Virus record (IMG/VR): IMGVR_UViG_3300015244_001866
Location: 1 to 64,000 of that record
DNA: 64,000 nucleotides
Source: a virus
Reading direction: 5' to 3' (one strand)
Shown here: piece by piece, positions 27,096-64,000 of the stretch
Numbering within the stretch: the stretch's first letter is position 1
Layout: every line of letters begins with the position of its first letter
Notes under the pieces: model-generated
The model's database searches: none
Seen by the model: only the letters and a program-made list of their open reading frames with translations
Told to the model about the DNA's origin: nothing
Made by a program: the position numbers and the translations under genes

Positions 27096-29996
27096 ATGGC
27101 ACTGAATAATGATTTTATCGTCAAGAATGGCCTTGTGGTCAAAACCACAGCCACGATTCTTAGCGGAATAAATTCTATTTCTACAAATTCAGGTGCCTTA
27201 GTAATCACAGGCGGCGTTGGCATAGGTGGTAGTTTATATGTTGGCGGCACAATATTTGGCACAATCATAGGCGGCATAACTACCGCTACTAATCTTGCAG
27301 GCGGCCTTGCTGGCTACATACCAATACAATCTGCCTCAGGACAAACTGCCTACATTCAAACAGGTACAGCTGGCTTTGTTCTGCAGATGCAGATTAATAA
27401 TACTGCTACCTGGGTCAGTACAAGTAGTCTAGGTATCAGTGGCGGAGGCAGTGCTTCTGCTGGTAATGCGGCAACTCCTGTTTCTTCAGGCACAGTCTAT
27501 GCAGTGACTACTGGCTCATTAGCCAATGTGAATAATGTGGCTCTAGGCTGGCAGTCTGGTGTGTCAATGACCACCGGTACATTTAATAATTCTCATGGTT
27601 ATCAAGCTCTATACAGTAACACCGTAGGCAGTTCTAACGCTGCCATTGGCGTTCAGGCCCTCTACAGCAACACTGGCGGTAATTTTAATACTGCTATTGG
27701 TACCTGCGCTCTATACGCTAATACTACCGGTGCATGTAACCTTGCTATTGGACATCAAGCTCTCCTCTGCAATACCAGCGGTGTTGCAAATATTGCTGTA
27801 GGTTTCCAAGCACTACTGGCTAATACAACTGGCGTGGGAAATATTGCAATAGGGTATGCAGCATTAACGGCAAACACCATAGCATGTCAAAATACCGCAA
27901 TTGGATGTTTTGCATTATGGGGCAATACCACTGGTTGCAACAACTTTGCTGTTGGTTATCTTTCACTGGCAACAAACAGTGGTGGTCAAAGTAATACCGC
28001 AATTGGCGGAAATGCCTTAAGATTTAATACAACTGGCAATGGCAACGTAGCAATTGGCTACACTGCCTTACAAGGAAACACTACCGGTAGCAACAACTTT
28101 GCAGTCGGTTGCTGTGCTATGAAGTCTGGTGCAAATACTGGATGGAATAATACAGCGTTTGGTTACGGTGCGCTGTTTGCCAACATATCCGGGTGTAATA
28201 ACGTTGCTATTGGATCGAATGCATTAAATTTAAACACTGGCGGCAGCAATAATATTGCTATCGGGTGTAAAGCATTGTGTTGTAATACAACTGGTAGACA
28301 TAATCTTGCATTAGGGTCTTTTGCTCTTGGTGCAAACAATGATGGCGTTGATAACATTGCCCTCGGTAACTGCTCGTTATATGCAAACATCAGCGGTTGT
28401 GGTAATATTGCAATAGGTTATGGAACATTAAAATCCACCACCACCAGCAACAACAACATTGCAATTGGAAGTGGCTCACAATGTTCTTTTGTTGGAACTG
28501 TGGGAAGTAATATAGCCATAGGCTGCGGAACTCTCAAGTGCAACACTACTGGTTTTAGTAACACGGCTATTGGCACAGGGGCACTACGAGATCAGACTTT
28601 TGCAACAGAAAATACCGCAGTAGGATACGGTGCAATGAGTAGCAATCTCACTGGCACCGGCAACGTTGCAGTCGGAGTCTGCGCACTAAATTCAAACCAA
28701 AGTGGTTTTAGTAACACAGCTATTGGTTCTTACGCCCTGAACAAAAATCTTAGCGGCCACTCTCATGTAGCAATGGGCTCATACGCATTACAATGTCAAA
28801 CTGGCGGATCTCACAACATTGCTTTAGGATTTGCATCTGCTAACTCAAGTACAACTGCTTGTTTTAATATTTCGTTAGGGTCGTATGCGTTAAATGATAA
28901 TTGTACAGGAAATAATAATATTGGTTTAGGCTATCGATCACTGTTTAACACATTAAATGTTTCTTGCAATATGGGTATTGGCGTAGAAACATTATTTGAT
29001 AATACAACTGGGGTTGGAAACATAGCCATAGGGTATCGGTCAGGATGTGCAATTACTACAGGTAGTTACAATGTGGTCATTGGTGGCAGTACTGGTAGCG
29101 GTATAGCGGCAAGTAATTGTAACATCATTATTTCTGATGGCTTTGGCACTGAAAGAATTACTGTTTCTTCTACAGGTACAGTTTCAATTACATCTGCACT
29201 ACAGAGCACCAGTTCAGTAGCGGGTAACGCACTGGTGGTTACAGGCGGTGTAGGTGTACAGGGCAGTCTGTATGTCGATGGTCCTGTTAATTTTAATAAC
29301 AATGTTATATTTGGCGGAACCAGCACCTATGTGCTCAGTACTAATACAGTCTATACTGACAATGTCATTGAGTTACACGCTCCGGGATCTGTGAGCAACA
29401 CCTGGTCAGTTGATGACGGTAAAGACATTGGCCTAAGAATACACTACTATTCAGGCGCAGATAAAAATGGTGCACTGGTATTAGCCAATAATTCAAAATA
29501 TCTAGAATGGTATAGTGATGCTACAGAAAGTATCACAGGCACCTTTACCAACAGAACTTATGGTACTTTCAAGACCGGCGGCATTCAATTAGTAGGCGGA
29601 ACCAGTTCTACTTCAGTGACCACAGGTGATCTAACAGTTACTGGCGGTGTTGGAGTAGCCAAGAATTTATATGTAAATGGCAGTTTGATATTAAATGGTG
29701 CACCTGTTACCACACAGCAGGCCCTAAACACCTATGAATTTACTGCCACCAGCGGGCAGACAAGTTTTCCAATCTCTGGAGGTTACAGTGTAAGTCAAAT
29801 TGAAGTATTCAGTAACGGTGTGTTAATGAATTCGGGAGACTATACTGCTACAAACGGATCGACGGTGGTCTTTACTTCAGGTAGAATTAGTGGCGATATT
29901 GTACAGATACGTACATTTAACACCTTTACAGTGGCCAGTTCTGTAATGGCCAGTGTGGCCTATGCAACGGCCATTTCAACAGCTATGGCAATGTGA
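27096..29996 (+). CDS. Fibre protein with central Cys-rich YadA-head-like beta-roll repeats
   Basis: 966 aa; N-terminal DFIVKNGL; tandem 17-aa N-x-A-I-G-x-x-A-L-x-x-N-T-x-G repeats; C-terminal FTATSGQTSF...VFSNGV domain. Confidence 0.8.
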   Translation: MALNNDFIVKNGLVVKTTATILSGINSISTNSGALVITGGVGIGGSLYVGGTIFGTIIGGITTATNLAGGLAGYIPIQSASGQTAYIQTGTAGFVLQMQINNTATWVSTSSLGISGGGSASAGNAATPVSSGTVYAVTTGSLANVNNVALGWQSGVSMTTGTFNNSHGYQALYSNTVGSSNAAIGVQALYSNTGGNFNTAIGTCALYANTTGACNLAIGHQALLCNTSGVANIAVGFQALLANTTGVGNIAIGYAALTANTIACQNTAIGCFALWGNTTGCNNFAVGYLSLATNSGGQSNTAIGGNALRFNTTGNGNVAIGYTALQGNTTGSNNFAVGCCAMKSGANTGWNNTAFGYGALFANISGCNNVAIGSNALNLNTGGSNNIAIGCKALCCNTTGRHNLALGSFALGANNDGVDNIALGNCSLYANISGCGNIAIGYGTLKSTTTSNNNIAIGSGSQCSFVGTVGSNIAIGCGTLKCNTTGFSNTAIGTGALRDQTFATENTAVGYGAMSSNLTGTGNVAVGVCALNSNQSGFSNTAIGSYALNKNLSGHSHVAMGSYALQCQTGGSHNIALGFASANSSTTACFNISLGSYALNDNCTGNNNIGLGYRSLFNTLNVSCNMGIGVETLFDNTTGVGNIAIGYRSGCAITTGSYNVVIGGSTGSGIAASNCNIIISDGFGTERITVSSTGTVSITSALQSTSSVAGNALVVTGGVGVQGSLYVDGPVNFNNNVIFGGTSTYVLSTNTVYTDNVIELHAPGSVSNTWSVDDGKDIGLRIHYYSGADKNGALVLANNSKYLEWYSDATESITGTFTNRTYGTFKTGGIQLVGGTSSTSVTTGDLTVTGGVGVAKNLYVNGSLILNGAPVTTQQALNTYEFTATSGQTSFPISGGYSVSQIEVFSNGVLMNSGDYTATNGSTVVFTSGRISGDIVQIRTFNTFTVASSVMASVAYATAISTAMAM

Positions 29997-30032
29997 GTAA
30001 ATATATGAATATGGACAAGGAAATAAACTAAA

Positions 30033-33000
30033 ATGCCTGTTTCACCAAGTAATCCGTTATCAACACTGTTTAATTCTGGTGGACAGGCCTGTGTAAGAGA
30101 CTCTACAGTTTCAACAGGAACCACCACTGGTGCTCTTACGGTTGTAGGTGGTGTAGGTGTTGGCGGTAATCTAAACGTTGGCTGCCAACTGACTGTGGGC
30201 TATGGCGCCTTAAGAAGGAGTACAGGGCTAGCCAATCTAGCCATAGGTACCTGTGCATTATATTGCAACATTACCGGAGGCAATAATGTTGCAATTGGAT
30301 GTAACGCATTAAGTGCTAACTTGTGCGGCAATAACAACATTGCCATAGGCACCGGTACATTAAGATTAAATATTCACGGTTCAAATAACCTTGCCATTGG
30401 ATGCTTTGCACTAACAAATAATACCACAGGTTGTAGCAACGTTGCTATCGGAGCCTTCGCACTTTATTCAAATACAACTGGTATTGACAATATTGCTATT
30501 GGTACTTCGGCATTATTCTGTAATAGTGGTGCTGGTGGTTTTCAAAACATCGGAATAGGTCAATTTGCTCTTTATAGGTCCACGTCTGGCATTGGCAACG
30601 TTGCCATTGGTGCATGTGCTCTTCTATGTTATCAAGGCGGAGGGGCAGATGGCATGGTTGCAGTTGGTTATCTTGCCGCCGCTCTTGCAAGAGGCGGTTG
30701 TCAAAATGTTGCAGTTGGTTCACAAGCTCTCTATTGTATCACTGATGGTTGTAAAAACGTTGCAATTGGTACTAGTGCTCTTGCATACGCTTGTAATAAT
30801 AGCAACAATACCGCAATTGGTACTAGTGCTCTCCTCTATAATTGCAACAACAACAATACCGCAATTGGTTCTCAAGCACTCTGTTATAATACTTTTGGCC
30901 ATAGTAACGTTGCTATTGGTAACGGTGCATTGTCTTCCAATACTAATGGTAGTTATAATATTGGTATTGGCCTTGGTGCTGGAAGCGCAATTACTACTGG
31001 ATCTTTTAATGTTGTCATAGGCTCAACATCAAGCAGTCAAATTGCTACAGGCAGTTGCTATGTGGTCATAGCTGACGGTACTGGTACTGTTCGACAAGTA
31101 TGGTCCGGTACCGGTGCTCTAAGCATAGGCCCAACTTATACTAATGTAGGTACTAGCGGACAGGTATTATGCAGTCAAGGACCTGGTAGTCCTCCTGCCT
31201 GGGCCACTGTCAGTGCTGGCGGCGGCATAGGTTCTGCACTGCCAACATCAACTGGTACAGTATTTGCCTATACACCGATAACAAATTGTAATATTTCTTT
31301 AGGTTATTGTTCTGGTAATATCACTACCACTGGTAATAATAATATTGCCATAGGTGTCTGTGCTCTAGTGGCCAATACCACTGGGTACGGAAACGTTGCG
31401 ATTGGCGGCTGTGGTTCACTGAGTTTAAACAACACTGGTTATCAAAACGTTGCAATAGGCCAATATAGTTTATGTGCCAATACTTTTGGTCATAATAACG
31501 TTGCCATCGGCGCCCGTGCTCTATATAATAATGCTAGCGGTAATTATAACATAGGCATAGGATATTATGCGTATTCTGGCATTAACGGCAATAGCAATAT
31601 TGCTATTGGTAATATTACTCAGTTTGGTGGTGGCGGAGGTGGTTATGGAAATATTTCGCTAGGCGACTGCACATTACGGAACAACACTGCCGGCTGTCAT
31701 AATTTTGCAGTCGGCTTGAATGCCCTTTATAATAATACAACCGGTTTACATAACTTTGCTGTTGGTTACTGCACACTGCATGCCAACACAGGAGGCAGTA
31801 GCAACGTAGCAATTGGTCTATGTTCGCTACGTGCAAATATTGCCGGAAATAGTAACATTGCTATCGGCGAATTGGCATTATTCTGCAATATTACTAGCCA
31901 TAATATTGCATTGGGTTATCGCACCCTTTACTCTAACACAGGCGGTAATCTTAATATTGCTATAGGATGTTGTGCTTTATATGCCAATGTCACTGGCATT
32001 AGTAATCTTGCCATCGGCCATCACGCACTTGCTTCAAACGTTTCTGGTTGTGCTAATATTGCCATCGGAACTTGTGCTTTATATTGCAATAGCTATGGAA
32101 TACGAAACTTGGCTCTGGGACAAGGCGCATTACAGGCTAATATCAGTGGATGCCAAAACACCGCAATTGGACATACTGCACTGTGTTCAAACGTCTCTGG
32201 AACACATAATGTTGCTATCGGTAATGCCGCAGGCGAAGGTATACTCGGAGGTAAAAATGTTGCCATAGGACCATATACACTCCAAGATTCTGGTCTTAAT
32301 TCCAGCAATATAGCCATTGGTTATGGCTCTTTACAAAAATCTGTTAGTAGTTGCGGCAACGTTGCTATTGGCGACAGTTCGTTGAGATGCAATTTAACTG
32401 GCTGTGCCAACGTTGCTATCGGACACTCTGCACTAACTAATAATCAAGCTGGTTGCAATAACGTTGCCATTGGATATCACACTCTTTACTGTAATACTGG
32501 GGGAAGTCGCAATGTAGTAATAGGCCTTAGTGCTGGATGCTTTATTACTACAGGCTCATATAATGTAGTCATTGGTAATACAGCCACAGGTGAGTTATCT
32601 ACGGCCAGTTGCTATGTGGTCATAGCTGATGGACGCGGTTGTATTAGAGAGGTATGGTCGGGTACTGGTGCACTAAGCGTTGGTGCCAGCTACACCAACG
32701 TAGGTACTAGCGGACAGGTATTATGCAGTCAGGGACCTGGTAGTCCTCCTGCCTGGGCTACTGTCAGTGTTAATGTGGGTATAGGTAGTGCAACCCCAAC
32801 TACCACTGGCACTGTGTATGCTTATACACCCGTTACAAATTGTAATATTTCTCTAGGCTACTGCTCAGGTAACGTTACTACCACTGGCGCACATAACGTT
32901 GCCATAGGTAAAGGTGCGTTAATTGCCAACACTACTGGCAAAAACAACATTGCCATTGGTTGTGCGGCATTATTCTGCAATACTTCTGGAATTAATAACA

Positions 33001-36000
33001 TTGCATTAGGCCAGTATGGTTTGTGTGCTAATACTACTGGCGAAAATAACTTTGGCGCAGGTTATGGTGTTCTTACCTGCAACACCTCAGGCTCTAATAA
33101 CATTGCTATTGGCTGTGGTACATTAAAATCCAATACCACAGGCTCTAATAACATTGCATTAGGCCGGTTTAGTTTATGTATTAATACTACCGGCTCAAAT
33201 AACTTTGCCGCTGGATACGGTACTCTTAGAACTAATACTGGTTCTCAAAATATTGCCATTGGATTCTGTGCCCTTGCCGCTAATATAACCGGTACTAATA
33301 ATTTTGCACTGGGTCATCAAGCACTAGCCGCAAATACTAGTGGTAGTAATAACGTTGCCATAGGCACTGGTACACTGGCCGCAAACACGCTAGGTACTGA
33401 CAATTTTGCCATGGGATATCTGTCACTATGCAGTAACACCAGCGGCAGTAATAATATTGCTCTAGGTAACTCTGCGTTACTATCAAATACTATCGGATCT
33501 CATAACTTTGCAGCCGGTAATTTAGCACTAAGAAATAACTCAACCGGCATAAGCAACACAGCTATTGGTCAATTTGCCCTCTACAATAATACCACTGGCG
33601 TTAATAACACCGCTATTGGTGCTTGTTCTCTCTACAATAATACTATTGGAACAAGCAATGTTGCTATTGGTGTTGGCTCTCTCCAATGTAATACCACCGG
33701 TATTGATAATACTGCTATTGGTTGTCTTGCACTCTTTTCTAACACAAGCGGTATTAATAATATAGCATTAGGAAACACGGCACTAAGGAATAATACCACA
33801 GGTGTTAATAATATTGCCATAGGTACCGGTACACTGGCCGCAAATACCCTAGGCTCAAATAACTTTGCCGCTGGATGTCTTGCCCTTTGTTCAAATATCT
33901 CTGGTAATAGTAATTTTGCAGTAGGTGCTAGTGCGTTAAAATCAAATACTAGCGGTAACAATAATATTGCCATTGGTACCGGTACACTGGCCGCAAATAC
34001 CCTAGGCTCAAATAACTTTGCCGCTGGATGTCTTGCCCTTTGTTCAAATATCTCTGGTAATAGTAATTTTGCAGTAGGTGCTAGTGCGTTAAAATCAAAT
34101 ACTAGCGGTAACAATAATATTGCCATTGGTGGCTTTGCCCTCAGTTGTACTAATACTGGTTCTCATAATACTGCTCTAGGTACTGGTACACTTCAATATG
34201 GTTCAACCGGTTGCAACAATTTTGCCGTAGGCTGTCAAGCCCTTAATAATGCCTGCGGATCCAATAATTTTGCAGTGGGACCAGGAGTCTTATACGGATG
34301 TAATGTTAGCTATGGCGCAACTAACACAGGCAATAACAATATAGGTATTGGTTATCAAACATTACTTTTTACTCAAGCTGGTAATAATAATGTTGGTTTT
34401 GGATGTAGCGTATTAAGATATAATACTGCTGGGTCAAGTAATATTGCCATAGGCGCCTGCGCACTTGTTTTCAACTGTGCATCTAATAATATTGCCATAG
34501 GCAGTAGTACTTTATATTCAAATACTATAGGTACAAATAATATTGCTTTTGGAAATCAGGCGCTGACTAAGAATACAACTGGATGTAGTAACGTAGCTAT
34601 CGGAGCCTGCGCACTTTTTTGCAATACCATTGGAAATAATAACACCGCTATTGGGTGTAATGCATTGTGTTTTAATACCACAGGTATTAATAATATTGCC
34701 ATTGGCAACGGTTCATTAACTGCCAACACTATCGGCTACGGTAACACAGCGTTGGGAAGTCAAGCATTATTCTGCAATACTACAGGCAAGAATAACGTTG
34801 CTATCGGCACTGAGGCACTATGTCTAAACATTACCGGTATTAATAACGTTGCAATTGGAAATCTTGCATTAAGATGTAACTGTGCCTCTAATAACGTTGC
34901 AATAGGTATTAACGTCCTAGCTAAAAATACCGTAGGTTGTAGTAACTTTGGCGCTGTTCAAGGCGCATTATACGGTAACCTAACAGGTTGTAACAATACC
35001 GCTATTGGTCTATGCGCTTTATGTGCTAACACCTACGGTCATAACAACGTTGCCATTGGTTCAATAGCAATGTGTCTTAACACCAGCGGTTCAGATAACT
35101 TTGCTGTTGGATTTAATTCACTAGGTGCAAACTTAACCGGAACTAGTAACGTAGCAATTGGCAGCTATGCGTTGTCCGGTAACCAAAACGGTATTCAAAA
35201 CGTTGCAATCGGCAAATGTGCAATGCAGTCTGCGGTTGGTGGCTTACGAAACGTAGCAATTGGCGAACAGGCATTGACCTTTAATTGCGGCAACTATAAC
35301 TTTGCTGTCGGTTATCAAGCGTTGTACTTTAACTTAACTGGTAACAATAACTTTGCTGTTGGCTATCAAGCATTGTTCAATAATAAAATTGGAAACAATA
35401 ACATTGCTATAGGGTGTGCGCTATGTGCTAACACAGCTGGTAACTATAACGTTGCACTTGGACTGTGTGCATTAAATTCTAACACGACTGGTAATAGTAA
35501 TTTTGCAGTAGGTGCTAGTGCGTTAGTATCAAATACTAGCGGTAACAATAATATTGCCATAGGCACTGGCACATTGTCCGCAAATACCCTGGGCTCAAAT
35601 AACTTTGCCGCTGGATGCCTTGCCCTTTGTTCAAATATTTCTGGTTGTAGCAATGTTGCTATAGGTTTTTGTGCATTAACTGCCAATACTACCGGTGTTG
35701 GTAATCTAGCATTAGGATATGGTGCATTAAAAACCAACGTCAGCGGATGTGCAAATACCGCAATTGGCTGTCTTGCACTATCATTAAACAACTCAGGTGT
35801 TAATAATATTGCCATTGGAGATAAGGCGTTATGCACTAATACCTACGGTGGTAATAACATAGCTATTGGTTGTGCCGCATTGATATTAAACACCACAGGA
35901 TGCAATAATATAGCGTTAGGATGGGCGTCGTTATCAAACAACACTAGCGGAAATAATAACATAGGCATCGGTTTCTTTGCAGGTATAAGCAATAAGACTG

Positions 36001-37520
36001 GCAATAATAATATAGCCATTGGTTGTCTTGCCCTCTGTGGAAATACAGCCAGCAATAATATTGCATTAGGCACGTGTGCTCTAAGATGCAATCTAACTGG
36101 TTGTGATAACATTGCAATAGGCTATGGCGCACTACTTTTAAATACCTACGGTAATAATAATACTGCCATTGGTTGCTACACCCTCTGCGCCAATACTACT
36201 GGTTGTCATAACACTGCTATTGGCGCAGGTGCGCTTCGTGCAAATACCTCTGGAAGAAACAACATTGCCATAGGCACTGGTACACTGGCCGCAAATACCC
36301 TAGGCTCAAATAACTTTGCCGCAGGTTGTAAAGCACTGGGCAACAATTCTACTGGTTGTAGCAATGTTGCTATAGGTTTTTGTGCATTAATATCAAACAC
36401 CACTGGAAGTAATAATACAGCTATTGGCTACGGTTCATTAAGTACAAATACCAGCGGCACTGATAATATTGCCATAGGATTTGGCGCACTTCGTTTAAAT
36501 AATGCCGGCGCTAATAATGTAGCGTTAGGACAAACTGCCCTATGTAATAACACATCTGGGGGGAATAATGTAGCCATTGGATACGGTACGTTAAAATGTA
36601 ATACTACTAATTATAATAACATTGCTATTGGTTGTAAAGCATTAAACTGCGCTACTGGTCAAAATAACATAGCATTTGGCGTATGTGCAGGCTACTGGAT
36701 CAATACTGGTTCAAACAATGTAGTCATAGGCGGTACAGGCACTATAGAACTGGCCAATAGCTGTTGCTATGTGGTCCTAGCTGATGGCACTGGAACAGTT
36801 AAGCAGGTATGGTCAGGTACAGGTGCTCTAAGTGTTGGTGCTAGTTACACCAATGTAGGTACCACAGGTCAAGTATTATGCAGTCAAGGACCTGGACTAC
36901 CTCCTGCCTGGGCCACAGTCAGTGCTGGAACCAGTCTAAGTCCAACTACAGGTACTATCAACCTTTCAGAACAGATTGTTAATGCGGCAACTACTACTTT
37001 TGCCATTGTAGGCGGCTACAGTGTAGGAAAAATACAGGTATTTGCCAACGGTATTAATTTGGCCAACAACGATTTTACCGCTACTGACGGTACCTACGTG
37101 GTATTAAACAGGGCAAGAAACGTTAATGATGTCATGCGATTTCAAGCATTTACAAATGGCTTTTCATCTACTAGTACCGCAGTTTATTCTGTAAATGAGT
37201 TTCCGGCATCGGCAAATCAAAGTGTATTTACTGCCACTTACAACGTTGGGGCAACTGAAGTATTTTTAAACGGTATACAGCTTGCTCAATCTGATTATGC
37301 CGCGGCAAACGGAACAACCATTGTTCTAACAACGGGATCTGGAGTAGTTGCAGGATCTAGATTGCGGGTTATGAGTTTTAACACCTTAAATGTTGTAGGA
37401 GCTCTGCCATTATCTGGCGGAACTGTAGTGGGAACAGTAAATGTTCAAGGAACCCTACAACAACAAGGAACACCTATATTAGCCCTACAGGCAGCCATGT
37501 CGCTGGCTTTGGGTAGTTAA
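30033..37520 (+). CDS. Giant Cys-rich fibre protein with YadA-head-like repeats
   Basis: 2495 aa; three blocks of NxAIG repeats separated by a conserved connector; two C-terminal V(F)xNG domains; ends AAMSLALGS. Confidence 0.82.
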   Translation: MPVSPSNPLSTLFNSGGQACVRDSTVSTGTTTGALTVVGGVGVGGNLNVGCQLTVGYGALRRSTGLANLAIGTCALYCNITGGNNVAIGCNALSANLCGNNNIAIGTGTLRLNIHGSNNLAIGCFALTNNTTGCSNVAIGAFALYSNTTGIDNIAIGTSALFCNSGAGGFQNIGIGQFALYRSTSGIGNVAIGACALLCYQGGGADGMVAVGYLAAALARGGCQNVAVGSQALYCITDGCKNVAIGTSALAYACNNSNNTAIGTSALLYNCNNNNTAIGSQALCYNTFGHSNVAIGNGALSSNTNGSYNIGIGLGAGSAITTGSFNVVIGSTSSSQIATGSCYVVIADGTGTVRQVWSGTGALSIGPTYTNVGTSGQVLCSQGPGSPPAWATVSAGGGIGSALPTSTGTVFAYTPITNCNISLGYCSGNITTTGNNNIAIGVCALVANTTGYGNVAIGGCGSLSLNNTGYQNVAIGQYSLCANTFGHNNVAIGARALYNNASGNYNIGIGYYAYSGINGNSNIAIGNITQFGGGGGGYGNISLGDCTLRNNTAGCHNFAVGLNALYNNTTGLHNFAVGYCTLHANTGGSSNVAIGLCSLRANIAGNSNIAIGELALFCNITSHNIALGYRTLYSNTGGNLNIAIGCCALYANVTGISNLAIGHHALASNVSGCANIAIGTCALYCNSYGIRNLALGQGALQANISGCQNTAIGHTALCSNVSGTHNVAIGNAAGEGILGGKNVAIGPYTLQDSGLNSSNIAIGYGSLQKSVSSCGNVAIGDSSLRCNLTGCANVAIGHSALTNNQAGCNNVAIGYHTLYCNTGGSRNVVIGLSAGCFITTGSYNVVIGNTATGELSTASCYVVIADGRGCIREVWSGTGALSVGASYTNVGTSGQVLCSQGPGSPPAWATVSVNVGIGSATPTTTGTVYAYTPVTNCNISLGYCSGNVTTTGAHNVAIGKGALIANTTGKNNIAIGCAALFCNTSGINNIALGQYGLCANTTGENNFGAGYGVLTCNTSGSNNIAIGCGTLKSNTTGSNNIALGRFSLCINTTGSNNFAAGYGTLRTNTGSQNIAIGFCALAANITGTNNFALGHQALAANTSGSNNVAIGTGTLAANTLGTDNFAMGYLSLCSNTSGSNNIALGNSALLSNTIGSHNFAAGNLALRNNSTGISNTAIGQFALYNNTTGVNNTAIGACSLYNNTIGTSNVAIGVGSLQCNTTGIDNTAIGCLALFSNTSGINNIALGNTALRNNTTGVNNIAIGTGTLAANTLGSNNFAAGCLALCSNISGNSNFAVGASALKSNTSGNNNIAIGTGTLAANTLGSNNFAAGCLALCSNISGNSNFAVGASALKSNTSGNNNIAIGGFALSCTNTGSHNTALGTGTLQYGSTGCNNFAVGCQALNNACGSNNFAVGPGVLYGCNVSYGATNTGNNNIGIGYQTLLFTQAGNNNVGFGCSVLRYNTAGSSNIAIGACALVFNCASNNIAIGSSTLYSNTIGTNNIAFGNQALTKNTTGCSNVAIGACALFCNTIGNNNTAIGCNALCFNTTGINNIAIGNGSLTANTIGYGNTALGSQALFCNTTGKNNVAIGTEALCLNITGINNVAIGNLALRCNCASNNVAIGINVLAKNTVGCSNFGAVQGALYGNLTGCNNTAIGLCALCANTYGHNNVAIGSIAMCLNTSGSDNFAVGFNSLGANLTGTSNVAIGSYALSGNQNGIQNVAIGKCAMQSAVGGLRNVAIGEQALTFNCGNYNFAVGYQALYFNLTGNNNFAVGYQALFNNKIGNNNIAIGCALCANTAGNYNVALGLCALNSNTTGNSNFAVGASALVSNTSGNNNIAIGTGTLSANTLGSNNFAAGCLALCSNISGCSNVAIGFCALTANTTGVGNLALGYGALKTNVSGCANTAIGCLALSLNNSGVNNIAIGDKALCTNTYGGNNIAIGCAALILNTTGCNNIALGWASLSNNTSGNNNIGIGFFAGISNKTGNNNIAIGCLALCGNTASNNIALGTCALRCNLTGCDNIAIGYGALLLNTYGNNNTAIGCYTLCANTTGCHNTAIGAGALRANTSGRNNIAIGTGTLAANTLGSNNFAAGCKALGNNSTGCSNVAIGFCALISNTTGSNNTAIGYGSLSTNTSGTDNIAIGFGALRLNNAGANNVALGQTALCNNTSGGNNVAIGYGTLKCNTTNYNNIAIGCKALNCATGQNNIAFGVCAGYWINTGSNNVVIGGTGTIELANSCCYVVLADGTGTVKQVWSGTGALSVGASYTNVGTTGQVLCSQGPGLPPAWATVSAGTSLSPTTGTINLSEQIVNAATTTFAIVGGYSVGKIQVFANGINLANNDFTATDGTYVVLNRARNVNDVMRFQAFTNGFSSTSTAVYSVNEFPASANQSVFTATYNVGATEVFLNGIQLAQSDYAAANGTTIVLTTGSGVVAGSRLRVMSFNTLNVVGALPLSGGTVVGTVNVQGTLQQQGTPILALQAAMSLALGS
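33822..34127. repeat. Exact in-frame 153-bp tandem duplication (51 aa, three beta-roll turns)
   Basis: Copies start at 33822 and 33975; diverged copies near 35490-35690 and 36260-36390. Confidence 0.93.
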
Positions 37521-37557
37521 TATAGATAAGTAATAGAAATATTGGAGATTTTTAGTT

Positions 37558-40500: not shown

Positions 40501-40716
40501 GCAACTCCGGGTGAAACAATCTTCTCATTCATTAATAGTCCATCCGGAACTGATTCGTTAGATCTAAGTGCCCTGAAAGAATTAACAAACACACCATTAG
40601 GCGGAAGAGGAGCATTTCCTAATGGACCAGACGTATTGGCTATCAATGTTTATGTTACACAGGGACAAAATATTCTCTCTAACCTAGTTCTACGTTGGGG
40701 TGAAGCACAGGCCTAA
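37558..40716 (+). CDS. Large virion structural protein
   Basis: 1052 aa; DAFERTRV...MIDADFEYGLQPTKW, YIRYQSGK and WYGAG motifs; SD GGAG; TAAGTA promoter variant at 37527. Confidence 0.75.
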   Translation: MAKQLIRTYTFAPGSPGIIVIPGKWDLNQILLITNATRNVFLYNFADATYSGTSVSFSRANSTAFPTTLNNTDGLTTITLTGNTSAQSASDNLQIFVERNEVITRPWPMGTDAFERTRVAAPKAMIDADFEYGLQPTKWQTLETLRNYPSFYEVPGTEISNISITTNASGGPTGSATSASLITIVTPSPHYLTAGTAIAVKGLLSGVTAFSRAEGSFLINTVPNGNAITYFAKGKVGTTDGERLDTVYAQIRRAALFTGSAISTGTFSIIGGGVSSTATIQVSFPTDHGLFPGATIYTQLNSDNGSNNHVLAQGSFFVTTVTNTSTVQYSARAPGSITGTPIGVVYARPDCFFQHRPFDGGVQLGTGNPTYMTSAVRMSKKYIRYQSGKSINYNTGALFAPNYDIRSITATNTIVGSTVFVTTDDVDHGLQPTAVIQLQGVTTTGYNVTATVTSVIDERTFTYITNTALSATTAVLGTPCLMSHVSWHGSTVRAGTFDEQNGMFWQYDGSQMALGQRTSTLQTAGTITVIPDSNLIVGQNTRFTDQLVAGDRVVIRGMTHSVSKVTSATWLSVTPDYRGITTSTGVKMLKTRDILYPQNQWNLDRCDGTNGVYNPSGYLLLPNKMQMIGMQWTWYGAGFIDWMLRGPDGNYLTVHRQKNSNVNTEAYMRSGNMPVRYEVINEGARSQITTDISSAAVAMTVTDVTYFPNTGTVYIDNELISFTGKNTTTSQLTGLTRGTTLGLYAGGTTRTFSAAGAVAHTTNTGVMLISQTATPTISHWGSAMLQDGGFDEDRGYIFNYQASNISAQLRKTTAFAIRLAPSVSNALVGDLGQRELINRAQLLLQSVAVTAGAAGANQAIVVEGVLNPSNYPTTATNIVWKTLTSGGQPSFSQIADGRDIAWDNTATILGVSFTGVANVTGTVTVSVNTTATIRIGDSFVSTGTAGGTIITAIGAGVLTLSQPLPSAVGAGQSITVTRNQFATPGETIFSFINSPSGTDSLDLSALKELTNTPLGGRGAFPNGPDVLAINVYVTQGQNILSNLVLRWGEAQA

Positions 40717-40752
40717 AATTTGGGTAAATACTCTAAAAGCGGAGCAAATACA

Positions 40753-40821
40753 ATGGCCAAGGCCTACAGTTGGTTACAATCTAATAAAATTCACACTCTC
40801 CTAGTGGAGTGCGACCTATGA
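40753..40821 (+). CDS. Putative 22-aa upstream peptide MAKAYSWLQSNKIHTLLVECDL
   Basis: TAAATA (40725), then GGAG (40741), then ATG (40753); its TGA overlaps the next ATG (ATGA). Confidence 0.4.
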   Translation: MAKAYSWLQSNKIHTLLVECDL

Positions 40822-42932
40822 CCATTGCACAAGATATCAGTTTTATACTCAATACTGGTACGGTAAACAGCGTTTCTTTGGGTTGTTGCTCACTAGGCGC
40901 TGCCTCAAGTGGTTGCAATAACGTTGCTATTGGCGTTTGTTCTCTATCAACTAACACTGCTGGGTCAAATAATATTGCACTTGGCCAATGCGCCCTAAAA
41001 TCAAATACCGCTGGTTGCAGTAACATTGCACTTGGCTTGAGTAATCTCTTCTCAAATACCACTGGCTGCAATAACATTGCAATTGGCCATTGTTCTCTTT
41101 ATTCAAATACCATAGGTGCATTGAACATTGCTATCGGGTGCGAGGGCATGTTCTGCAATACCACCGGCTTTGGTAATATTGCTGTTGGACATTGTACTCT
41201 TCGATTTAATAACAGTGGTAGTCAAAATCTTGCTTTAGGTGCTCTGGCACTGCGTGCCAACACCTACGGCGATAAAAATATTGCCATAGGTGGTCTTGCC
41301 CTAAGATCAAATACCACCGGCAACCATAATATTGCCATGGGCTACGGAGCCCTCTACGGAAATACTACTGGTGGATTGAACATTGCTATTGGTTGTTGTG
41401 CAATGCGGACAGGTAGTAGCGGCAACTCAAATATTGCCATTGGCTACGGTAGTAACTTCTGCAACACTTACGGAAGTTGCAACATCAGCATTGGTCATTG
41501 CACCTTGTTCCGTAACAGAACTGGGTGTAATAACGTTGCAATTGGATGTCTTACTTTACAAGGCAACTCAGGCGGCTATAATAATATAGGCATTGGCGCC
41601 TGCGCCATTCAATCTAATACCACCGGCTACGGCAACATTGCAATTGGTGATGGCGCTCTGGGCGGTGCTGGTGCTGGATTAGCTCTTAATTCACGCAATA
41701 CAGTGATTGGTACGAACGCCATGAGAAGAACTACCTGTAACTGTAATAACGTGGCGGTCGGGTTTGCGGCTTTCTTTTGTAACACTACAGGATGTGGTAA
41801 TACAGCCATAGGGACCTCCGCTCTTTGTTTTAATACCAGCGGTCTGTGTAACATTGCTATAGGAAATGGAGCAGCCCTCTGTACGACCATTGGGTCTTAT
41901 AATGTTGTTATAGGAAGTACCACCAGTGTAGAAATTGCCACTAGTAATTGTTATGTGGTCCTAGCTGATGGTGCTGGAACAGTTCGACAAGTATGGTCAG
42001 GTACCGGTGCTCTAAGCATAGGCCCAACTTATACTAATTTTGGTACTGCTGGACAAGTCTTGTGCAGTAACGGTCCCATGAGTCCTCCTGCTTGGGCCAC
42101 TGTGGCCAGTTCTGGTGGAGGTAGTGCCGCTGGTAATTTTGTTGAAGCTGGCCTATTCAGTACCAGTGTGAGCAATCAAGTAGGTTATTCAGTACCAGGC
42201 GACTCTTTTACCACAACCTATATTACCACAGGTACAGGCATTATTGCCACCATGCCCAGCACTACAGGCACTAGATATATCATACACAGCCTGCACATTA
42301 CAAATACTGCGGCCAGTGATGCTGAAATTACGGGCAGATTTGAACATACTATGGGCACTGGCGGGTCAAGCTCAACCTCAATAACTATTGATCACGTTAG
42401 TTTCTTTGCCAGCAGACTACCTGTACCCAGCGGATCAGCAGTTGAACTGTTTAAGAAACCACAAATTTTATATCCTAACGATATTGTAAGACTACAGGCC
42501 ACCAGCGCCAACGGTGGCGGTGGTGTTAATAATCAACTTTTTGCCTATATGATCTATGAGTCATCTACAGACTACACTTATCAATCAGGCAACTATAATC
42601 TAGCCAGTGCCAGCCCCGCTAATATATACACCAGCCAACTAAGCACTGGTACCACCACAGCCACAGCCTATCCCAGCATTATTGAAAGTGTGCGAGTAAC
42701 CAACTATTCCAACGTGGCTGACTATAGGATTACAGTATTTTGGACTAACTCTGCAAACGTAATTCAAAGTTATTTGGCCTACAACATGTTAATACCCGCA
42801 TATTCTACAGTTGAAATACTTGAAAAAGTAAAACGCATAACCTCAGGCGATATCATTAAGGCCGTTCCCGAAGCTCCTAACGTGCTAAGTATTCAAGTTA
42901 GCAGTAAGATACTTACTTCTACCTTTATTTAA
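40818..42932 (+). CDS. Cys-rich beta-roll fibre protein with two C-terminal small beta-sandwich domains
   Basis: Likely start is ATG 40818 (GGAG at 40806; MTIA, as at 62010). NxAIG repeats; connector shared with the 2495-aa protein. Confidence 0.78.
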   Translation: MTIAQDISFILNTGTVNSVSLGCCSLGAASSGCNNVAIGVCSLSTNTAGSNNIALGQCALKSNTAGCSNIALGLSNLFSNTTGCNNIAIGHCSLYSNTIGALNIAIGCEGMFCNTTGFGNIAVGHCTLRFNNSGSQNLALGALALRANTYGDKNIAIGGLALRSNTTGNHNIAMGYGALYGNTTGGLNIAIGCCAMRTGSSGNSNIAIGYGSNFCNTYGSCNISIGHCTLFRNRTGCNNVAIGCLTLQGNSGGYNNIGIGACAIQSNTTGYGNIAIGDGALGGAGAGLALNSRNTVIGTNAMRRTTCNCNNVAVGFAAFFCNTTGCGNTAIGTSALCFNTSGLCNIAIGNGAALCTTIGSYNVVIGSTTSVEIATSNCYVVLADGAGTVRQVWSGTGALSIGPTYTNFGTAGQVLCSNGPMSPPAWATVASSGGGSAAGNFVEAGLFSTSVSNQVGYSVPGDSFTTTYITTGTGIIATMPSTTGTRYIIHSLHITNTAASDAEITGRFEHTMGTGGSSSTSITIDHVSFFASRLPVPSGSAVELFKKPQILYPNDIVRLQATSANGGGGVNNQLFAYMIYESSTDYTYQSGNYNLASASPANIYTSQLSTGTTTATAYPSIIESVRVTNYSNVADYRITVFWTNSANVIQSYLAYNMLIPAYSTVEILEKVKRITSGDIIKAVPEAPNVLSIQVSSKILTSTFI

Positions 42933-42941
42933 AGGTCAATA

Positions 42942-43598
42942 ATGAGTTTAATGATAGCATTACCCTGTTACGGTGGACAGGTTTCCGAAAAAACTACCAG
43001 CGGGTTGTTCAATTTAGGTAAAATGTTAGTAAGGAATGATATTCCCCACGGCCTACTGACACTGGCAAATTCAAGTTTAATATCGCAGGGCCGCAGTAAG
43101 ATAGCCAATTTTTTTGTAAATAATACTGACTATGATTATCTGTTCTTTTTAGACAGTGACATAGGCTTTGATCCTAGCGATGTATTAAAATTAATGCATC
43201 TAGGAAAGACAATCAGCTGTGCGGCCTATCCTATGAAAACTATACCCGTTAGATACAATTATACACTCAGTCGTCCGGAACAACGTGACGGAGGTCTAGT
43301 CAAAATTGACAGCATGGGTCTAGGTTTTGCCATGATTCATCGACGGGTATTTTTAGACATTGCTAGAAAATACGGAGAAGAATTATTCTATATACCAGAT
43401 GATGGTTCTAGCAATGTACCTCACACACAAGAAGAAAAGACCAATAGCTATCATTACTTTTTAGAAATGCGTAACAGCACTGGTTATATGGCTGAAGATA
43501 TCAGCTTTTTTACTCGAGCAAGTTCAGTAGGACATGATGCATGGTTAGACACTGAGATTGAATTGTGCCATATTGGCAATCACGTTTTTAGAGCATAA
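42942..43598 (+). CDS. Glycosyltransferase, GT-A fold
   Basis: MIALPCY N-terminal strand, YLFFLDSDI (DxD), GLGFAMIHR, AEDISFF and LCHIG. Confidence 0.8.
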   Translation: MSLMIALPCYGGQVSEKTTSGLFNLGKMLVRNDIPHGLLTLANSSLISQGRSKIANFFVNNTDYDYLFFLDSDIGFDPSDVLKLMHLGKTISCAAYPMKTIPVRYNYTLSRPEQRDGGLVKIDSMGLGFAMIHRRVFLDIARKYGEELFYIPDDGSSNVPHTQEEKTNSYHYFLEMRNSTGYMAEDISFFTRASSVGHDAWLDTEIELCHIGNHVFRA

Positions 43599-63959: not shown

Positions 63960-64000
63960 ATGAAAAAAATCATTTACATCGATGGCGGTGCAGGCCGCGT
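63960..64000 (+). CDS. 5' fragment of a gene (MKKIIYIDGGAGR), possibly a GT-B/GT9-like glycosyltransferase
   Basis: Only 13 codons visible; a beta-strand followed by a GGxG loop fits a Rossmann-like start. Confidence 0.4.
   Translation, partial: MKKIIYIDGGAGR

What the first reader, a model, noticed from the sequence alone, without database searches (positions are those of the whole stretch)
27480..42110. Cysteine-loaded YadA-like beta-roll fibres: Cys placed systematically at variable repeat positions
Seen: in four proteins (27096, 30033, 40818, 62010) the 17-aa repeat N-x-A-I-G-x-x-A-L-x-x-N-x-x-G-x-x carries roughly one Cys per repeat, mostly right after AIG, after AL or after the last G. 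I count about 26 Cys in the 626-aa protein. I see none in the neighbouring 1329-aa and 1234-aa fibres or in the flanks of the 966-aa protein. Cys also replaces residues in shared non-repeat motifs (GQVLCSQG vs GSVLTSNG; GNLNVGC vs GNLNVGG; SDCRDK). Known: cellular YadA/Hia-type heads are Cys-poor, and phage fibres fold in a reducing cytoplasm. Inference: these are exposed thiols selected as attachment sites (for example S-glycosylation by a nearby GT such as 42942, 61334 or the gene starting at 63960), as metal-binding ladders, or as post-lysis disulfide cross-links.
Basis: partly seen in the sequence, partly recalled or inferred. Interest (0 to 1): 0.8.

Follow-up and report, generated by a model that had tools for sequence, protein, structure and literature searches.

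The report
Cysteine-studded phage fibres with sugar transferase
Four tail-fibre proteins of a giant uncultured phage carry about one exposed cysteine per 17-residue repeat, and across many phages such fibres go together with one heptosyltransferase-like enzyme, so the phage probably sugar-coats its fibres, perhaps through a sugar-sulfur bond never shown on a virus.

Summary
Four ORFs (966, 2495, 707 and 626 aa) hold 194 Cys. In their 17-aa repeats Cys makes up 5.6% of residues, against 0.17% in the other virion proteins. It sits only at the variable positions 6, 7, 10, 11 and 16.

The phage is a Rak2-like jumbo myovirus. Close relatives are 322-353 kb, and every repeat fibre in them is Cys-rich.

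- **Class:** among homologues the Cys content falls into two classes. In an unbiased viral sample, 56 of 71 loci have under 0.5% and 6 have 2% or more.
- **Placement:** Cys are placed independently. CxxC and CC are avoided. Single sites turn over as fast as other variable sites, while the totals persist.
- **Exposure:** a trimer model puts positions 7, 10, 11 and 16 outside the subunit interface.
- **Enzyme link:** Cys-rich fibres co-occur with one GT9-like enzyme, here the gene starting at 63960, right after the 626-aa fibre. It is found in 9 of 10 Cys-rich viral records and in 0 of 21 Cys-poor ones. Its model matches WaaC, WaaF and TibC.

Best reading: fibre glycosylation like AIDA-I/Aah, probably with heptose and possibly on Cys. 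No chemistry shows this. Ordered disulfide or metal ladders are disfavoured.

The scan had noted this pairing before on other DNA. I read those notes only after my own test.

The parts
27096..29996 (+). 966-aa fibre with 24 Cys, all between residues 204 and 675. The 17-aa repeat array spans about aa 147-663 (nt about 27534-29084). Both flanks are Cys-free.
30033..37520 (+). 2495-aa fibre with 117 Cys. It is three concatenated repeat modules, each ending in a ...GQVLCSQGPG(S/L)PPAWATV junction. The repeat arrays span about nt 30210-36752.
40809..42932 (+). 707-aa fibre with 28 Cys (GTG start at 40809; ATG at 40818). The repeat array spans about aa 21-370. Residues 17-300 were modelled as a beta-solenoid, and residues 116-300 of the protein (100-284 of the modelled segment) as a trimer.
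42942..43598 (+). 218-aa distant GT-A (GT2-like) glycosyltransferase directly after the 707-aa fibre. Homologues lie next to Cys-rich fibres in L011, L023 and L024.
61334..61969 (+). 211-aa GT2 glycosyltransferase directly before the 626-aa fibre. It shows no association with Cys-rich fibres in the loci sampled.
62010..63890 (+). 626-aa fibre with 25 Cys. The repeat array spans about aa 97-490.
63573..63746 (+). Peptidase_S74 intramolecular-chaperone domain of the 626-aa fibre (aa 522-579), with Cys inside the SDCRDK motif.
   Evidence: E 6.9e-09, 36.3 bits against a cut-off of 22
63960..64000 (+). Start of the 311-aa GT9-like (heptosyltransferase-like, GT-B) gene. It runs on to base 64892 of the contig, beyond the window. 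It is followed by carbamoyltransferase, sulfotransferase, GT-A, a GmhB-like phosphatase, GT1/GT4 and a kinase-adenylyltransferase fusion.

Best explanation
The four proteins are trimeric beta-solenoid tail fibres of a Rak2-like jumbo myovirus. One 17-residue repeat forms one rung. Scaffold positions 2, 4 and 5, flanked by 6 and 17, pack the three chains together. Positions 7, 10, 11 and 16 point outward and change very fast. In this phage, and in a recurrent minority of phages, selection keeps a high density of Cys (10-20% per site) on that outer surface but does not fix particular sites.

This trait is inherited together with a dedicated GT9-like GT-B glycosyltransferase, usually encoded right beside a Cys-rich fibre gene (here at 63960). 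I propose that this enzyme glycosylates the fibres in the cytoplasm before or during assembly. This is how the heptosyltransferases Aah and TibC hyper-glycosylate the beta-helix repeats of AIDA-I and TibA. I propose that the sugar is an NDP-heptose, possibly further carbamoylated or sulfated, and that the scattered thiols are the acceptor sites, giving S-linked glycans.

Shown here: the Cys pattern, its predicted exposure, its turnover, the co-occurrence with the enzyme, and the enzyme's fold. Inferred: that the enzyme acts on the fibres, that the sugar is heptose, and that the link is to sulfur.
For: 1. Cys occurs only at variable positions, at 0.89 per rung, in all four proteins. The same pattern holds in 53 Cys-rich homologues with 1938 units.
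2. Cys content falls into two classes rather than a gradient: 124 of 149 best homologues are under 0.5% and 16 are at 3-6.5%. In an unbiased viral sample, 56 of 71 are under 0.5% and 6 are at 2% or more.
3. It is a trait of the whole genome. All 13 repeat fibres of three close relatives (MCP 89-92% identical) are Cys-rich, while adjacent fibres without the repeat have 0 Cys.
4. Selection acts on density, not on sites. In orthologous fibres, individual Cys are kept in 7-42% of cases, against 12-28% for other variable residues and 68-78% for the scaffold. Totals stay at 31-46.
5. Cys are spaced apart: CxxC z=-3.5 and CC z=-3.0 in 87 non-redundant proteins. This fits bulky independent adducts.
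6. The trimer model scores ipSAE 0.91 against a best control of 0.00, with 98% contact agreement between runs and partner pLDDT of at least 86. In the tool's calibration, 20 of 30 proteins solved as pairs and 1 of 23 solved as single chains reached this mark. These counts hold only roughly here, because the job used three copies and my own alignment. The interface is positions 17, 2, 4, 5 and 6; positions 7, 10, 11 and 16 are not in it.
7. The GT9-like gene is present in 8 of 20 Cys-rich loci and 0 of 57 Cys-poor loci, in 3 of 6 against 0 of 56 in the unbiased subset, and in 9 of 10 against 0 of 21 whole viral records (p=5e-7).
8. In the reverse direction, 36 of 93 GT9-like loci hold a repeat fibre within 8 kb, and 30 of those 36 are Cys-rich, against a base rate of 6 in 71.
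9. The pairing holds across three enzyme subtypes only about 20% identical to each other, and across different phage types, including a 57-kb phage with no gp23 match.
10. The enzyme model (pLDDT 85) matches only GT9 heptosyltransferases and TibC at E 1e-10 to 7e-8; the next match is at 1.6e-5. The donor-site motif D-S/T-x-x-x-H is kept.
11. Pointers to heptose: a GmhB-like phosphatase and a kinase-adenylyltransferase fusion in the same island. In cultured cyanophages P-SSM2, S-SSM7 and S-CAM1 the homologous enzyme sits beside carbamoyltransferase, phosphoheptose isomerase, kinase, nucleotidyltransferase and heptose epimerase genes, with proteins of 8-12% Cys just upstream.
12. Ser and Tyr are the residues most depleted where Cys is gained.
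13. Precedent: TibC and AAH heptosylate Ser on beta-helix adhesins (PMC4358343).
Against: No chemical evidence exists for any modification. No GT9-family enzyme is known to use a thiol acceptor. The known S-glycosyltransferases that I recall (SunS and ThuS of the glycocins) are GT2 enzymes; that is from memory and was not checked here.

The co-occurrence could reflect shared ancestry of a fibre-plus-island module. After collapsing related loci the count is about 4 of 16 against 0 of 57 (p=0.002). Cys-poor loci are mostly small SU10-like podoviruses (30 SU10_adaptor hits), so phage type is a confounder.

Several close relatives of the enzyme have no Cys-rich gene within 8 kb (L180-L186), although one of those genomes has Cys-rich fibres 10-30 kb away. 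One Cys-rich record lacks the enzyme in the 46% of its genome that is held.

The enzyme could act on conserved Thr or Ser, on another virion protein such as the Kelch propellers, or on host LPS. No phosphoheptose isomerase was found in the two complete relatives.
Confidence: 0.42

Rival explanations
1. The thiols stay free in the cell and oxidise after lysis. They form haphazard intra-fibre, inter-fibre or fibre-to-host disulfides that stiffen, bundle or anchor the fibres. The GT9-like enzyme does something else.
For: Disulfide-linked tail fibres exist: cyanophage Pam3 attaches its fibres to the baseplate by disulfides that DTT breaks (PMC9942802). Hundreds of exposed thiols in oxic water would oxidise unless capped. 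Positions 6 and 17 lie at the predicted subunit interface.
Against: No Cys pair is enriched within a rung or between adjacent rungs in the window. In 87 proteins the closest pairs are avoided, and the interface pair (17 followed by 6) is depleted at z=-2.2. Single Cys are not conserved between orthologues. No sulfhydryl oxidase turned up, but that search had no working control. This reading does not explain the link to the GT9-like gene.
Confidence: 0.18
2. The GT9-like enzyme O-glycosylates Ser/Thr of the fibres, as the autotransporter heptosyltransferases do, or modifies other virion proteins or host LPS. The Cys have a separate role, or travel with the enzyme only because both belong to one mobile fibre module.
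For: All characterised GT9 and autotransporter-heptosyltransferase enzymes use oxygen acceptors. Every repeat carries conserved Thr/Ser (N-T-T/S-G). The island also lies beside Kelch-propeller proteins that other notes of this scan tie to the same enzymes.
Against: Thr and Ser are equally present in Cys-poor fibres, which lack the enzyme. In a 57-kb phage lineage the enzyme sits between Cys-rich fibre genes. The enzyme also neighbours Cys-rich proteins that have a variant repeat or none: L189 and L192 at 10% Cys, L264, and the cyanophage proteins at 8-12% Cys.
Confidence: 0.2
3. The Cys form metal-binding sites (Fe, Zn, Cu or other soft metals) along the fibre.
For: Thiolates bind soft metals, and the density is very high. 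Same-position stacking at position 7 is slightly enriched in the large set (z=2.5).
Against: The classic chelating spacings are depleted: CxxC z=-3.5 and CC z=-3.0. In the window, same-position stacks number 9 against about 17 expected. Sites are not conserved. The number of Cys per unit fits independent placement: 54 units with none and 55 with one.
Confidence: 0.06
4. There is no function. Cys is merely tolerated at free surface positions because of habitat or mutation bias.
For: Cys is one nucleotide away from Tyr, Ser, Phe, Arg and Gly codons, and these are common at the variable sites. Cys exchanges mostly with these residues.
Against: A frequency of 13-21% per site is several times the roughly 3% expected for two codons out of 61 (inference). 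The phage's other virion proteins, including other fibres, hold 0-0.5% Cys. The distribution falls into two classes and persists despite fast turnover.
Confidence: 0.05

Closest known systems
Bacterial autotransporter heptosyltransferases (Aah, TibC) with their adhesins AIDA-I and TibA
   Same: A dedicated GT-B enzyme of the heptosyltransferase fold is encoded beside a long repeat beta-solenoid adhesin and decorates many repeat positions in the cytoplasm (PMC4358343). TibC is among the top fold matches of the phage enzyme (E 1.6e-9). A hyper-glycosylated TibA fragment is among the fold matches of the fibre model (Z 11.6, rmsd 4.6 A over 188 residues, one of many beta-helices).
   Different: The setting is a phage fibre, not a secreted autotransporter. 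The period is 17 aa and the fibre is trimeric. The enzyme is about 310 aa with a single Cys, so it has no iron-finger, and no heptosyltransferase family of NCBIfam reaches its cut-off. The residue that co-varies with the enzyme is Cys, not Ser.
YadA-type heads of trimeric autotransporter adhesins
   Same: The repeat is of the N-x-A-I-G type and is predicted to form a trimeric parallel solenoid with the A-I-G strand at the trimer core.
   Different: There is no Pfam match. The period is 17 rather than 14 residues. There is no membrane anchor. One of the four fibres ends in a phage S74 chaperone domain. Cys-rich.
Virion glycosylation in mycobacteriophages (Freeman et al. 2023, as cited in PMC12619734)
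   Same: Phage-encoded glycosyltransferases decorate the phage's own virion proteins.
   Different: There the glycans sit on the C-terminal ends of the capsid and tail-tube subunits. No Cys-laden repeats and no GT9-like enzyme are involved.
S-glycosylated glycocins (sublancin, glycocin F, pallidocin)
   Same: They are the known cases of enzymatic sugar-to-cysteine bonds in bacteria.
   Different: They are small peptides with one or two sites, made by GT2-type enzymes (the GT2 assignment is from memory and was not tested here).
Disulfide-attached tail fibres of cyanophage Pam3
   Same: Cys on phage tail parts with a shown role outside the cell (PMC9942802).
   Different: Pam3 has a few conserved Cys that form defined bonds between fibre and baseplate, not hundreds of unconserved surface Cys.

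Membership tests
YadA-like head (Pfam YadA_head / Hep_Hag) | Sequence match to the Pfam repeat model | tested here: not met
   None of the repeat regions of the four proteins matches any Pfam family at E<=0.01. The only hit is Peptidase_S74 at the C-terminus of the 626-aa protein.
YadA-like head (Pfam YadA_head / Hep_Hag) | 14-residue repeat period | tested here: not met
   Of the anchor spacings, 142 are exactly 17 residues, with a few of 16 or 18.
YadA-like head (Pfam YadA_head / Hep_Hag) | Trimer of parallel beta-rolls packed round a threefold axis | tested here: inconclusive
   The trimer model passes: ipSAE 0.91 against a best control of 0.00, contact agreement of at least 98%, pLDDT of at least 86. 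In calibration 20 of 30 solved pairs and 1 of 23 single chains reached the mark, and these counts hold only roughly here. It is a model, not a structure. Handedness was not read. Fold matches are generic beta-helices; the UspA1 head gives Z 11.6 with rmsd 7.1 over 217 residues.
Fibres with a Peptidase_S74 intramolecular chaperone | C-terminal S74 domain with the S-D-x-R-x-K motif | tested here: met
   626-aa protein, residues 522-579, 36.3 bits against a cut-off of 22; SDCRDK at residue 522. The domain is absent from the other three fibres.
GT9 glycosyltransferases (LPS heptosyltransferases WaaC, WaaF, WaaQ) | Pfam Glyco_transf_9 domain and GT-B fold | tested here: met
   PF01075 at 33.4 bits against a cut-off of 22. 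The fold matches are 3tov, 1psw and 2h1h at E 1e-10 to 1.5e-9.
GT9 glycosyltransferases (LPS heptosyltransferases WaaC, WaaF, WaaQ) | Orthology to a named LPS heptosyltransferase (NCBIfam equivalog cut-offs) | tested here: not met
   The best hit is 30.9 bits against a cut-off of 467 (RfaQ). All hits lie far below their cut-offs.
GT9 glycosyltransferases (LPS heptosyltransferases WaaC, WaaF, WaaQ) | Donor-binding motif (D-T-G-x-x-H in WaaC) | tested here: met
   The invariant D224-S225-x-x-Q228-H229 aligns to WaaC's V-D-T-G-L-S-H.
GT9 glycosyltransferases (LPS heptosyltransferases WaaC, WaaF, WaaQ) | N-terminal catalytic base (Asp13 of WaaC) | tested here: inconclusive
   hhalign aligned only the C-terminal lobe. 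No residue-level structural alignment was available.
Bacterial autotransporter heptosyltransferases (TibC, Aah) | Match to a curated family model at its cut-off | tested here: not met
   No such family is listed for the enzyme at E<=0.01 in NCBIfam. A profile search of the PDB found WaaC but not TibC at E<=1.
Bacterial autotransporter heptosyltransferases (TibC, Aah) | Iron-finger of four conserved Cys that supports the dodecamer | tested here: not met
   The window's enzyme has one Cys in 311 aa. The feature is described in PMC4358343.
Bacterial autotransporter heptosyltransferases (TibC, Aah) | Encoded beside its repeat beta-solenoid substrate | tested here: met
   The gene pair [Cys-rich fibre][GT9-like] occurs here and in L013, L018, L066, L088 and HTVC111P.
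Bacterial autotransporter heptosyltransferases (TibC, Aah) | Transfers heptose from ADP-heptose to the adhesin | not testable with these tools
   There are only pointers: a GmhB-like phosphatase and a kinase-adenylyltransferase fusion nearby, and heptose-pathway genes beside the homologue in P-SSM2, S-SSM7 and S-CAM1.

The most novel reading that the evidence does not exclude
Phage tail fibres are hyper-glycosylated on cysteine. A phage-specific branch of the GT9 heptosyltransferase fold would transfer a heptose-type sugar to dozens or hundreds of surface thiols per fibre. That would give a glycan coat, resistant to glycosidases, on a fast-evolving receptor-binding surface. It would be the first S-glycosylated virion, the first S-glycosyltransferase of this fold, and protein S-glycosylation on a scale far beyond the one or two sites of glycocins.
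Probability: 0.3. Interest if true: 0.9.

Novelty: new variant of a known kind. Interest (0 to 1): 0.7.

Why it matters
Extracellular proteins normally avoid free cysteine. Homologous fibres hold almost none, yet a recurrent class of aquatic phages keeps one per 17 residues on the exposed, fast-evolving face of its host-recognition fibres.

The tight two-way link to one heptosyltransferase-like enzyme turns an oddity of composition into a testable hypothesis of virion modification. If the sugar is on sulfur, this is a new kind of protein glycosylation in viruses. Such a coat could affect host range, resistance to proteases and glycosidases, and particle stability in water.

The test is within reach. 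Cultured phages carry the enzyme: Pelagibacter phages HTVC111P and HTVC112P, where it follows a fibre with moderate Cys (1.9% of repeat residues), and cyanophages P-SSM2, S-SSM7 and S-CAM1, where it follows small proteins of 8-12% Cys that lack the repeat. The pair could also be co-expressed in E. coli.

Tried and rejected
- **Fibre identity.** Megablast of the fibre region against phage records found nothing. Sequence search of the PDB with two fibres found nothing useful. Foldseek of the fibre monomer against the PDB found nothing at E<=0.001. The wide structural search gave only generic beta-helices.
- **Thiol enzymes.** The search for an Erv1/ALR sulfhydryl oxidase found nothing, but the control did not ring either, so it shows nothing. 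Thioredoxin is present only in one complete record and tells us nothing here.
- **Orthologue.** P0211 has the same length as the 966-aa fibre but proved not to be its orthologue.
- **Cys-free controls.** The search for related loci with Cys-free homologues found no loci. I replaced these with a Cys-neutral DNA pattern scan.
- **Heptose pathway.** Phosphoheptose isomerase (SIS_2) was not found in this contig or its complete relatives.
- **Catalytic base.** A profile alignment to E. coli WaaC covered only the donor lobe, so the catalytic base could not be compared.
- **Ideas I raised but did not test.** A diversity-generating retroelement, lanthionine or radical-SAM cross-links, and a recoded Cys codon. 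No reverse transcriptase or lanthipeptide enzyme appeared among the ORFs of the 92-kb contig that I scanned. One radical-SAM hit turned up among the 68 flank ORFs of other Cys-rich loci.
Full report
**What the window is.** The window is the first 64 kb of a 91,951-bp uncultured viral contig that CheckV rates at 25% complete. It encodes a T4-type portal, prohead protease and gp23 capsid protein. Further along the contig are gp15, large terminase, gp32 and a RecA/UvsX-like recombinase. The capsid protein is 67-70% identical to those of Rak2-like jumbo phages such as Phosso, CBB and GAP32. It is 89-92% identical to three uncultured records of 259, 322 (terminal repeats, complete) and 353 kb. So this is a jumbo myovirus of roughly 320-350 kb. 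Between 14 and 64 kb lies a row of about eleven very large fibre-like genes, interleaved with small tailoring enzymes.

- Four ORFs carry 24, 117, 28 and 25 Cys. Most other large virion ORFs carry 0-3, and the 1551-aa protein carries 8 (0.5%).
- The four are exactly the ORFs that contain a 17-residue repeat, N-x-A-I-G-x-x-A-L-x-x-N-T-x-G-x-N. The Cys-free neighbours do not have this repeat.
- In 142 exact units, Cys fills 13-21% of each of positions 6, 7, 10, 11 and 16. It is absent or nearly absent (0-1%) at the eleven scaffold positions.
- Cys makes up 5.6% of repeat residues, against 0.17% in the other virion proteins (p about 4e-91).

**Comparison with homologues.** The repeat family is huge: 41,470 cluster representatives at E<=0.001. 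Among the 149 best hits, 124 have under 0.5% Cys in their repeats and 16 have 3-6.5%, with almost nothing in between. That query was itself Cys-rich, so I drew a neutral sample. I scanned viral contigs for the DNA pattern of N-T-T-G-x-x-N-T-A-I-G, which holds no Cys codon. Of 71 loci, 56 have under 0.5% Cys (45 have none) and 6 have 2% or more.

The Cys-rich form is therefore a discrete minority class. In 53 such proteins from elsewhere (1938 units), Cys again occupies only positions 6, 7, 10, 11, 16 and 17. It mainly displaces Tyr, Ser and acidic residues. Cys-rich fibres occur in phages whose capsid proteins are only 33-38% identical to this one, and in a 57-kb phage with no gp23 match at all.

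In the three close relatives, all 13 repeat fibres are Cys-rich (2.8-7.4% of repeat residues). They are scattered over the genome, and a neighbouring 1349-aa fibre without the repeat has no Cys. The trait belongs to the phage, not to one gene.

**How the Cys are arranged.**
- In the window, no pair of Cys positions within a unit or between successive units is enriched. Same-position stacks number 9 against about 17 expected. The number of Cys per unit (54, 55, 27 and 6 units with 0, 1, 2 and 3) fits independent placement.
- In 87 non-redundant Cys-rich proteins (2812 units), the strongest signals are avoidance of C-x-x-C (positions 7 and 10, z=-3.5) and of adjacent C-C (10 and 11, z=-3.0; 16 and 17, z=-2.2).
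- Five orthologous fibres sit at one genomic position, beside enzymes 63-95% identical. In them a given Cys is retained in 7-42% of pairwise comparisons. Other variable residues are retained in 12-28% and scaffold residues in 68-78%. Each protein still keeps 31-46 Cys.

So the outer surface is hypervariable, and what is maintained is Cys density, not Cys sites. This argues against designed disulfides and against fixed metal sites. It fits many equivalent, mutually spaced sites.

**Fold and exposure.**
- An AlphaFold2 model of residues 17-300 of the 707-aa protein (86-sequence alignment, pLDDT 72, pTM 0.72) is a solenoid with one short strand (positions 2-4) per 17-residue rung.
- Foldseek found no solved relative. 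A wider structural search gave only generic beta-helices at Z 10-14.5. Among them were autotransporter passengers, tailspikes, the glycosylated TibA fragment (Z 11.6, rmsd 4.6, 188 aligned) and the UspA1 head (Z 11.6, rmsd 7.1, 217 aligned).
- Three copies of residues 100-284 of that segment were predicted as a trimer. The score was 0.91 against 0.00 for the best of three controls. The runs agreed in at least 98% of contacts, and partner pLDDT was at least 86. In the tool's calibration, 20 of 30 proteins solved as pairs of one chain and 1 of 23 solved as single chains reached this mark. Those counts hold only roughly here, because the job had three copies and used my own alignment. This supports binding but does not show it.
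- The named interface residues map to repeat positions 17, 2, 4, 5 and 6. Positions 7, 10, 11 and 16 are not in it.
- The S74 chaperone domain of the 626-aa fibre independently points to a trimeric fibre (established knowledge of that domain).

**The enzyme link.** I clustered the ORFs that flank Cys-rich fibres. Three families recur: a roughly 300-aa GT9-like protein, a 218-aa distant GT-A (the gene at 42942), and a sulfotransferase.
- Pfam tallies of flank ORFs show glycosyltransferases and sulfotransferases near Cys-rich fibres. Among the 25 families listed, almost none occur near Cys-poor fibres. The Cys-poor loci are mostly SU10-like podoviruses.
- A profile of the GT9-like family hits 8 of 20 Cys-rich loci and 0 of 57 Cys-poor loci over the whole fetched DNA. 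Within the neutral sample alone the figures are 3 of 6 against 0 of 56 (p=5e-4).
- At the level of whole viral records, the figures are 9 of 10 against 0 of 21 (p=5e-7).
- In the reverse direction, of 93 viral loci found with two GT9-like queries, 36 hold a 17-aa-repeat ORF within 8 kb. Of these, 30 are Cys-rich and three more have 1-2%. Others hold Cys-rich proteins that my pattern missed, such as an N-T-F-I-G variant in L264 and proteins of 10% Cys in L189 and L192.
- The usual layout is the enzyme directly beside a Cys-rich fibre gene. In this contig it starts at 63960, 70 bases after the 626-aa fibre.
- The three enzyme subtypes are only about 20% identical to each other, so the pairing is old.
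- Caveats. Several of the Cys-rich loci belong to one lineage; after collapsing them the count is about 4 of 16 against 0 of 57 (p=0.002). Phage type is a confounder. Some relatives of the enzyme have no Cys-rich gene within 8 kb.

**What the enzyme is.** It matches Pfam Glyco_transf_9 above the cut-off. In NCBIfam it gives only weak hits to LPS heptosyltransferases. Its model (34 sequences, pLDDT 85, pTM 0.85) has as its only strong fold matches a Veillonella GT9 enzyme, WaaF, WaaC and the autotransporter heptosyltransferase TibC, at E 1e-10 to 7e-8. The next match is at 1.6e-5. The donor-site motif of WaaC is kept. It has one Cys, so it lacks TibC's iron-finger. It is therefore not a member of that family.

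Downstream lie a carbamoyltransferase, a sulfotransferase, a second GT-A, a HAD phosphatase whose best match is GmhB, a GT1/GT4, and a P-loop kinase fused to an adenylyltransferase-like domain. In the cultured cyanophages P-SSM2, S-SSM7 and S-CAM1, the homologue (35-37% identical) is followed by the same carbamoyltransferase. After it come genes annotated as nucleotidyltransferase and carbohydrate kinase (heptose kinase/adenylyltransferase in S-CAM1), phosphoheptose isomerase (P-SSM2 and S-SSM7) and a sugar epimerase (P-SSM2 and S-CAM1). It is preceded by two or three proteins of 260-356 aa with 8-12% Cys. This points to a heptose donor and widens the link between the enzyme and Cys-rich proteins.

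**Reading.** The closest working analogy is AIDA-I/Aah and TibA/TibC. There a heptosyltransferase encoded beside a repeat beta-helix adhesin adds heptose to many Ser residues (PMC4358343). Here the residue that appears together with the enzyme is Cys. It is exposed, spaced out and interchangeable between sites, which is what one expects of acceptor sites for a bulky adduct. I therefore favour glycosylation of the fibres by the GT9-like enzyme, with S-linkage as the leading but unproven possibility. I put about 0.4 on modification with Cys involved and about 0.3 on S-glycosylation proper. Free thiols that oxidise after lysis, O-glycosylation with an unrelated role for Cys, metal binding, and neutrality are the rivals, in that order.

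**Literature and the scan.** Full-text searches found no description of Cys-rich phage fibres or of S-glycosylated virions. Known neighbours are the disulfide-attached fibres of Pam3, mycobacteriophage virion glycosylation (cited in PMC12619734) and S-glycosylated glycocins. Within this scan, at least seven earlier follow-ups on other genomes reached the same pairing and the same analogy. I read them only after my own co-occurrence test, so the two lines agree. They are not independent evidence, because they draw on the same databases.

- the neutral sample and the reverse test;
- the mapping of the trimer interface onto repeat positions;
- the avoidance of CxxC and CC;
- the turnover of Cys sites among orthologues;
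- the finding that every repeat fibre in three near-complete relatives is Cys-rich;
- the identification of cultured carriers.

Noticed in passing
L189:535-4653 and L192:3325-7491 (viral contigs found with the GT9-like query): Proteins of 1373 and 1389 aa with 136 and 146 Cys (about 10%) and no visible 17-aa repeat. Each lies one small ORF upstream of a GT9-like gene 57-58% identical to the window's.
   Followed up: partly
L285:5979-8845 (P-SSM2 genes 304 and 306), L286:4917-7310 (S-SSM7 genes 114-116), L287:5320-8120 (S-CAM1): In cultured cyanophages, two or three paralogous proteins of 260-356 aa with 8-12% Cys and a W-x-V-P-x-G-V...W-G-A-G-G-G motif sit just upstream of the GT9-like homologue. 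That homologue is followed by a carbamoyltransferase and genes annotated as an NDP-heptose pathway.
   Followed up: partly
L055:2533-5849 (Pelagibacter phage HTVC111P gp52-gp53; HTVC112P likewise): The 'putative glycosyl transferase' gp53 of this cultured pelagiphage belongs to the GT9-like family (E 3.7e-79 against my profile). It directly follows a tail fibre with 9 Cys in 463 repeat residues. This is a possible laboratory model.
   Followed up: partly
window 30033-37520: The 2495-aa gene is three fibre modules joined head to tail. Each ends in a near-identical junction (SYNVVIG ... YVV(I/L)ADG.G ... VWSGTGALS ... GQVLCSQGPG(S/L)PPAWATV). A roughly 50-aa stretch is repeated exactly in tandem around residues 1264-1363, which suggests recent internal duplication.
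   Followed up: no
contig 68160-70584 (L009:4160-6584), beyond the window: A GmhB-like HAD phosphatase, a GT1/GT4 and a 286-aa fusion of a P-loop kinase with an adenylyltransferase-like domain may form a partial NDP-heptose route built from non-standard parts. No phosphoheptose isomerase was found in the complete relatives.
   Followed up: partly
L193, L197, L203, L214, L215 (orthologous fibres upstream of the L023-type GT9-like gene): Fibres are only 50-64% identical where the neighbouring enzyme is 63-95% identical. Variable repeat positions keep 12-28% identity and scaffold positions 68-78%. This looks like strong diversifying change on the outer face.
   Followed up: partly
L088:7173-8072: A GIY-YIG/NUMOD homing-endonuclease-like gene lies between a Cys-rich fibre gene and the GT9-like gene of a complete 364.7-kb phage record.
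   Followed up: no
window repeat positions 12-14 in all four fibres: Positions 12-14 read N-x-T/S in about two thirds of units (N-T-T, N-T-S, N-I-S). This is the N-glycosylation sequon. It is conserved in Cys-poor homologues too, so it may be purely structural.
   Followed up: no
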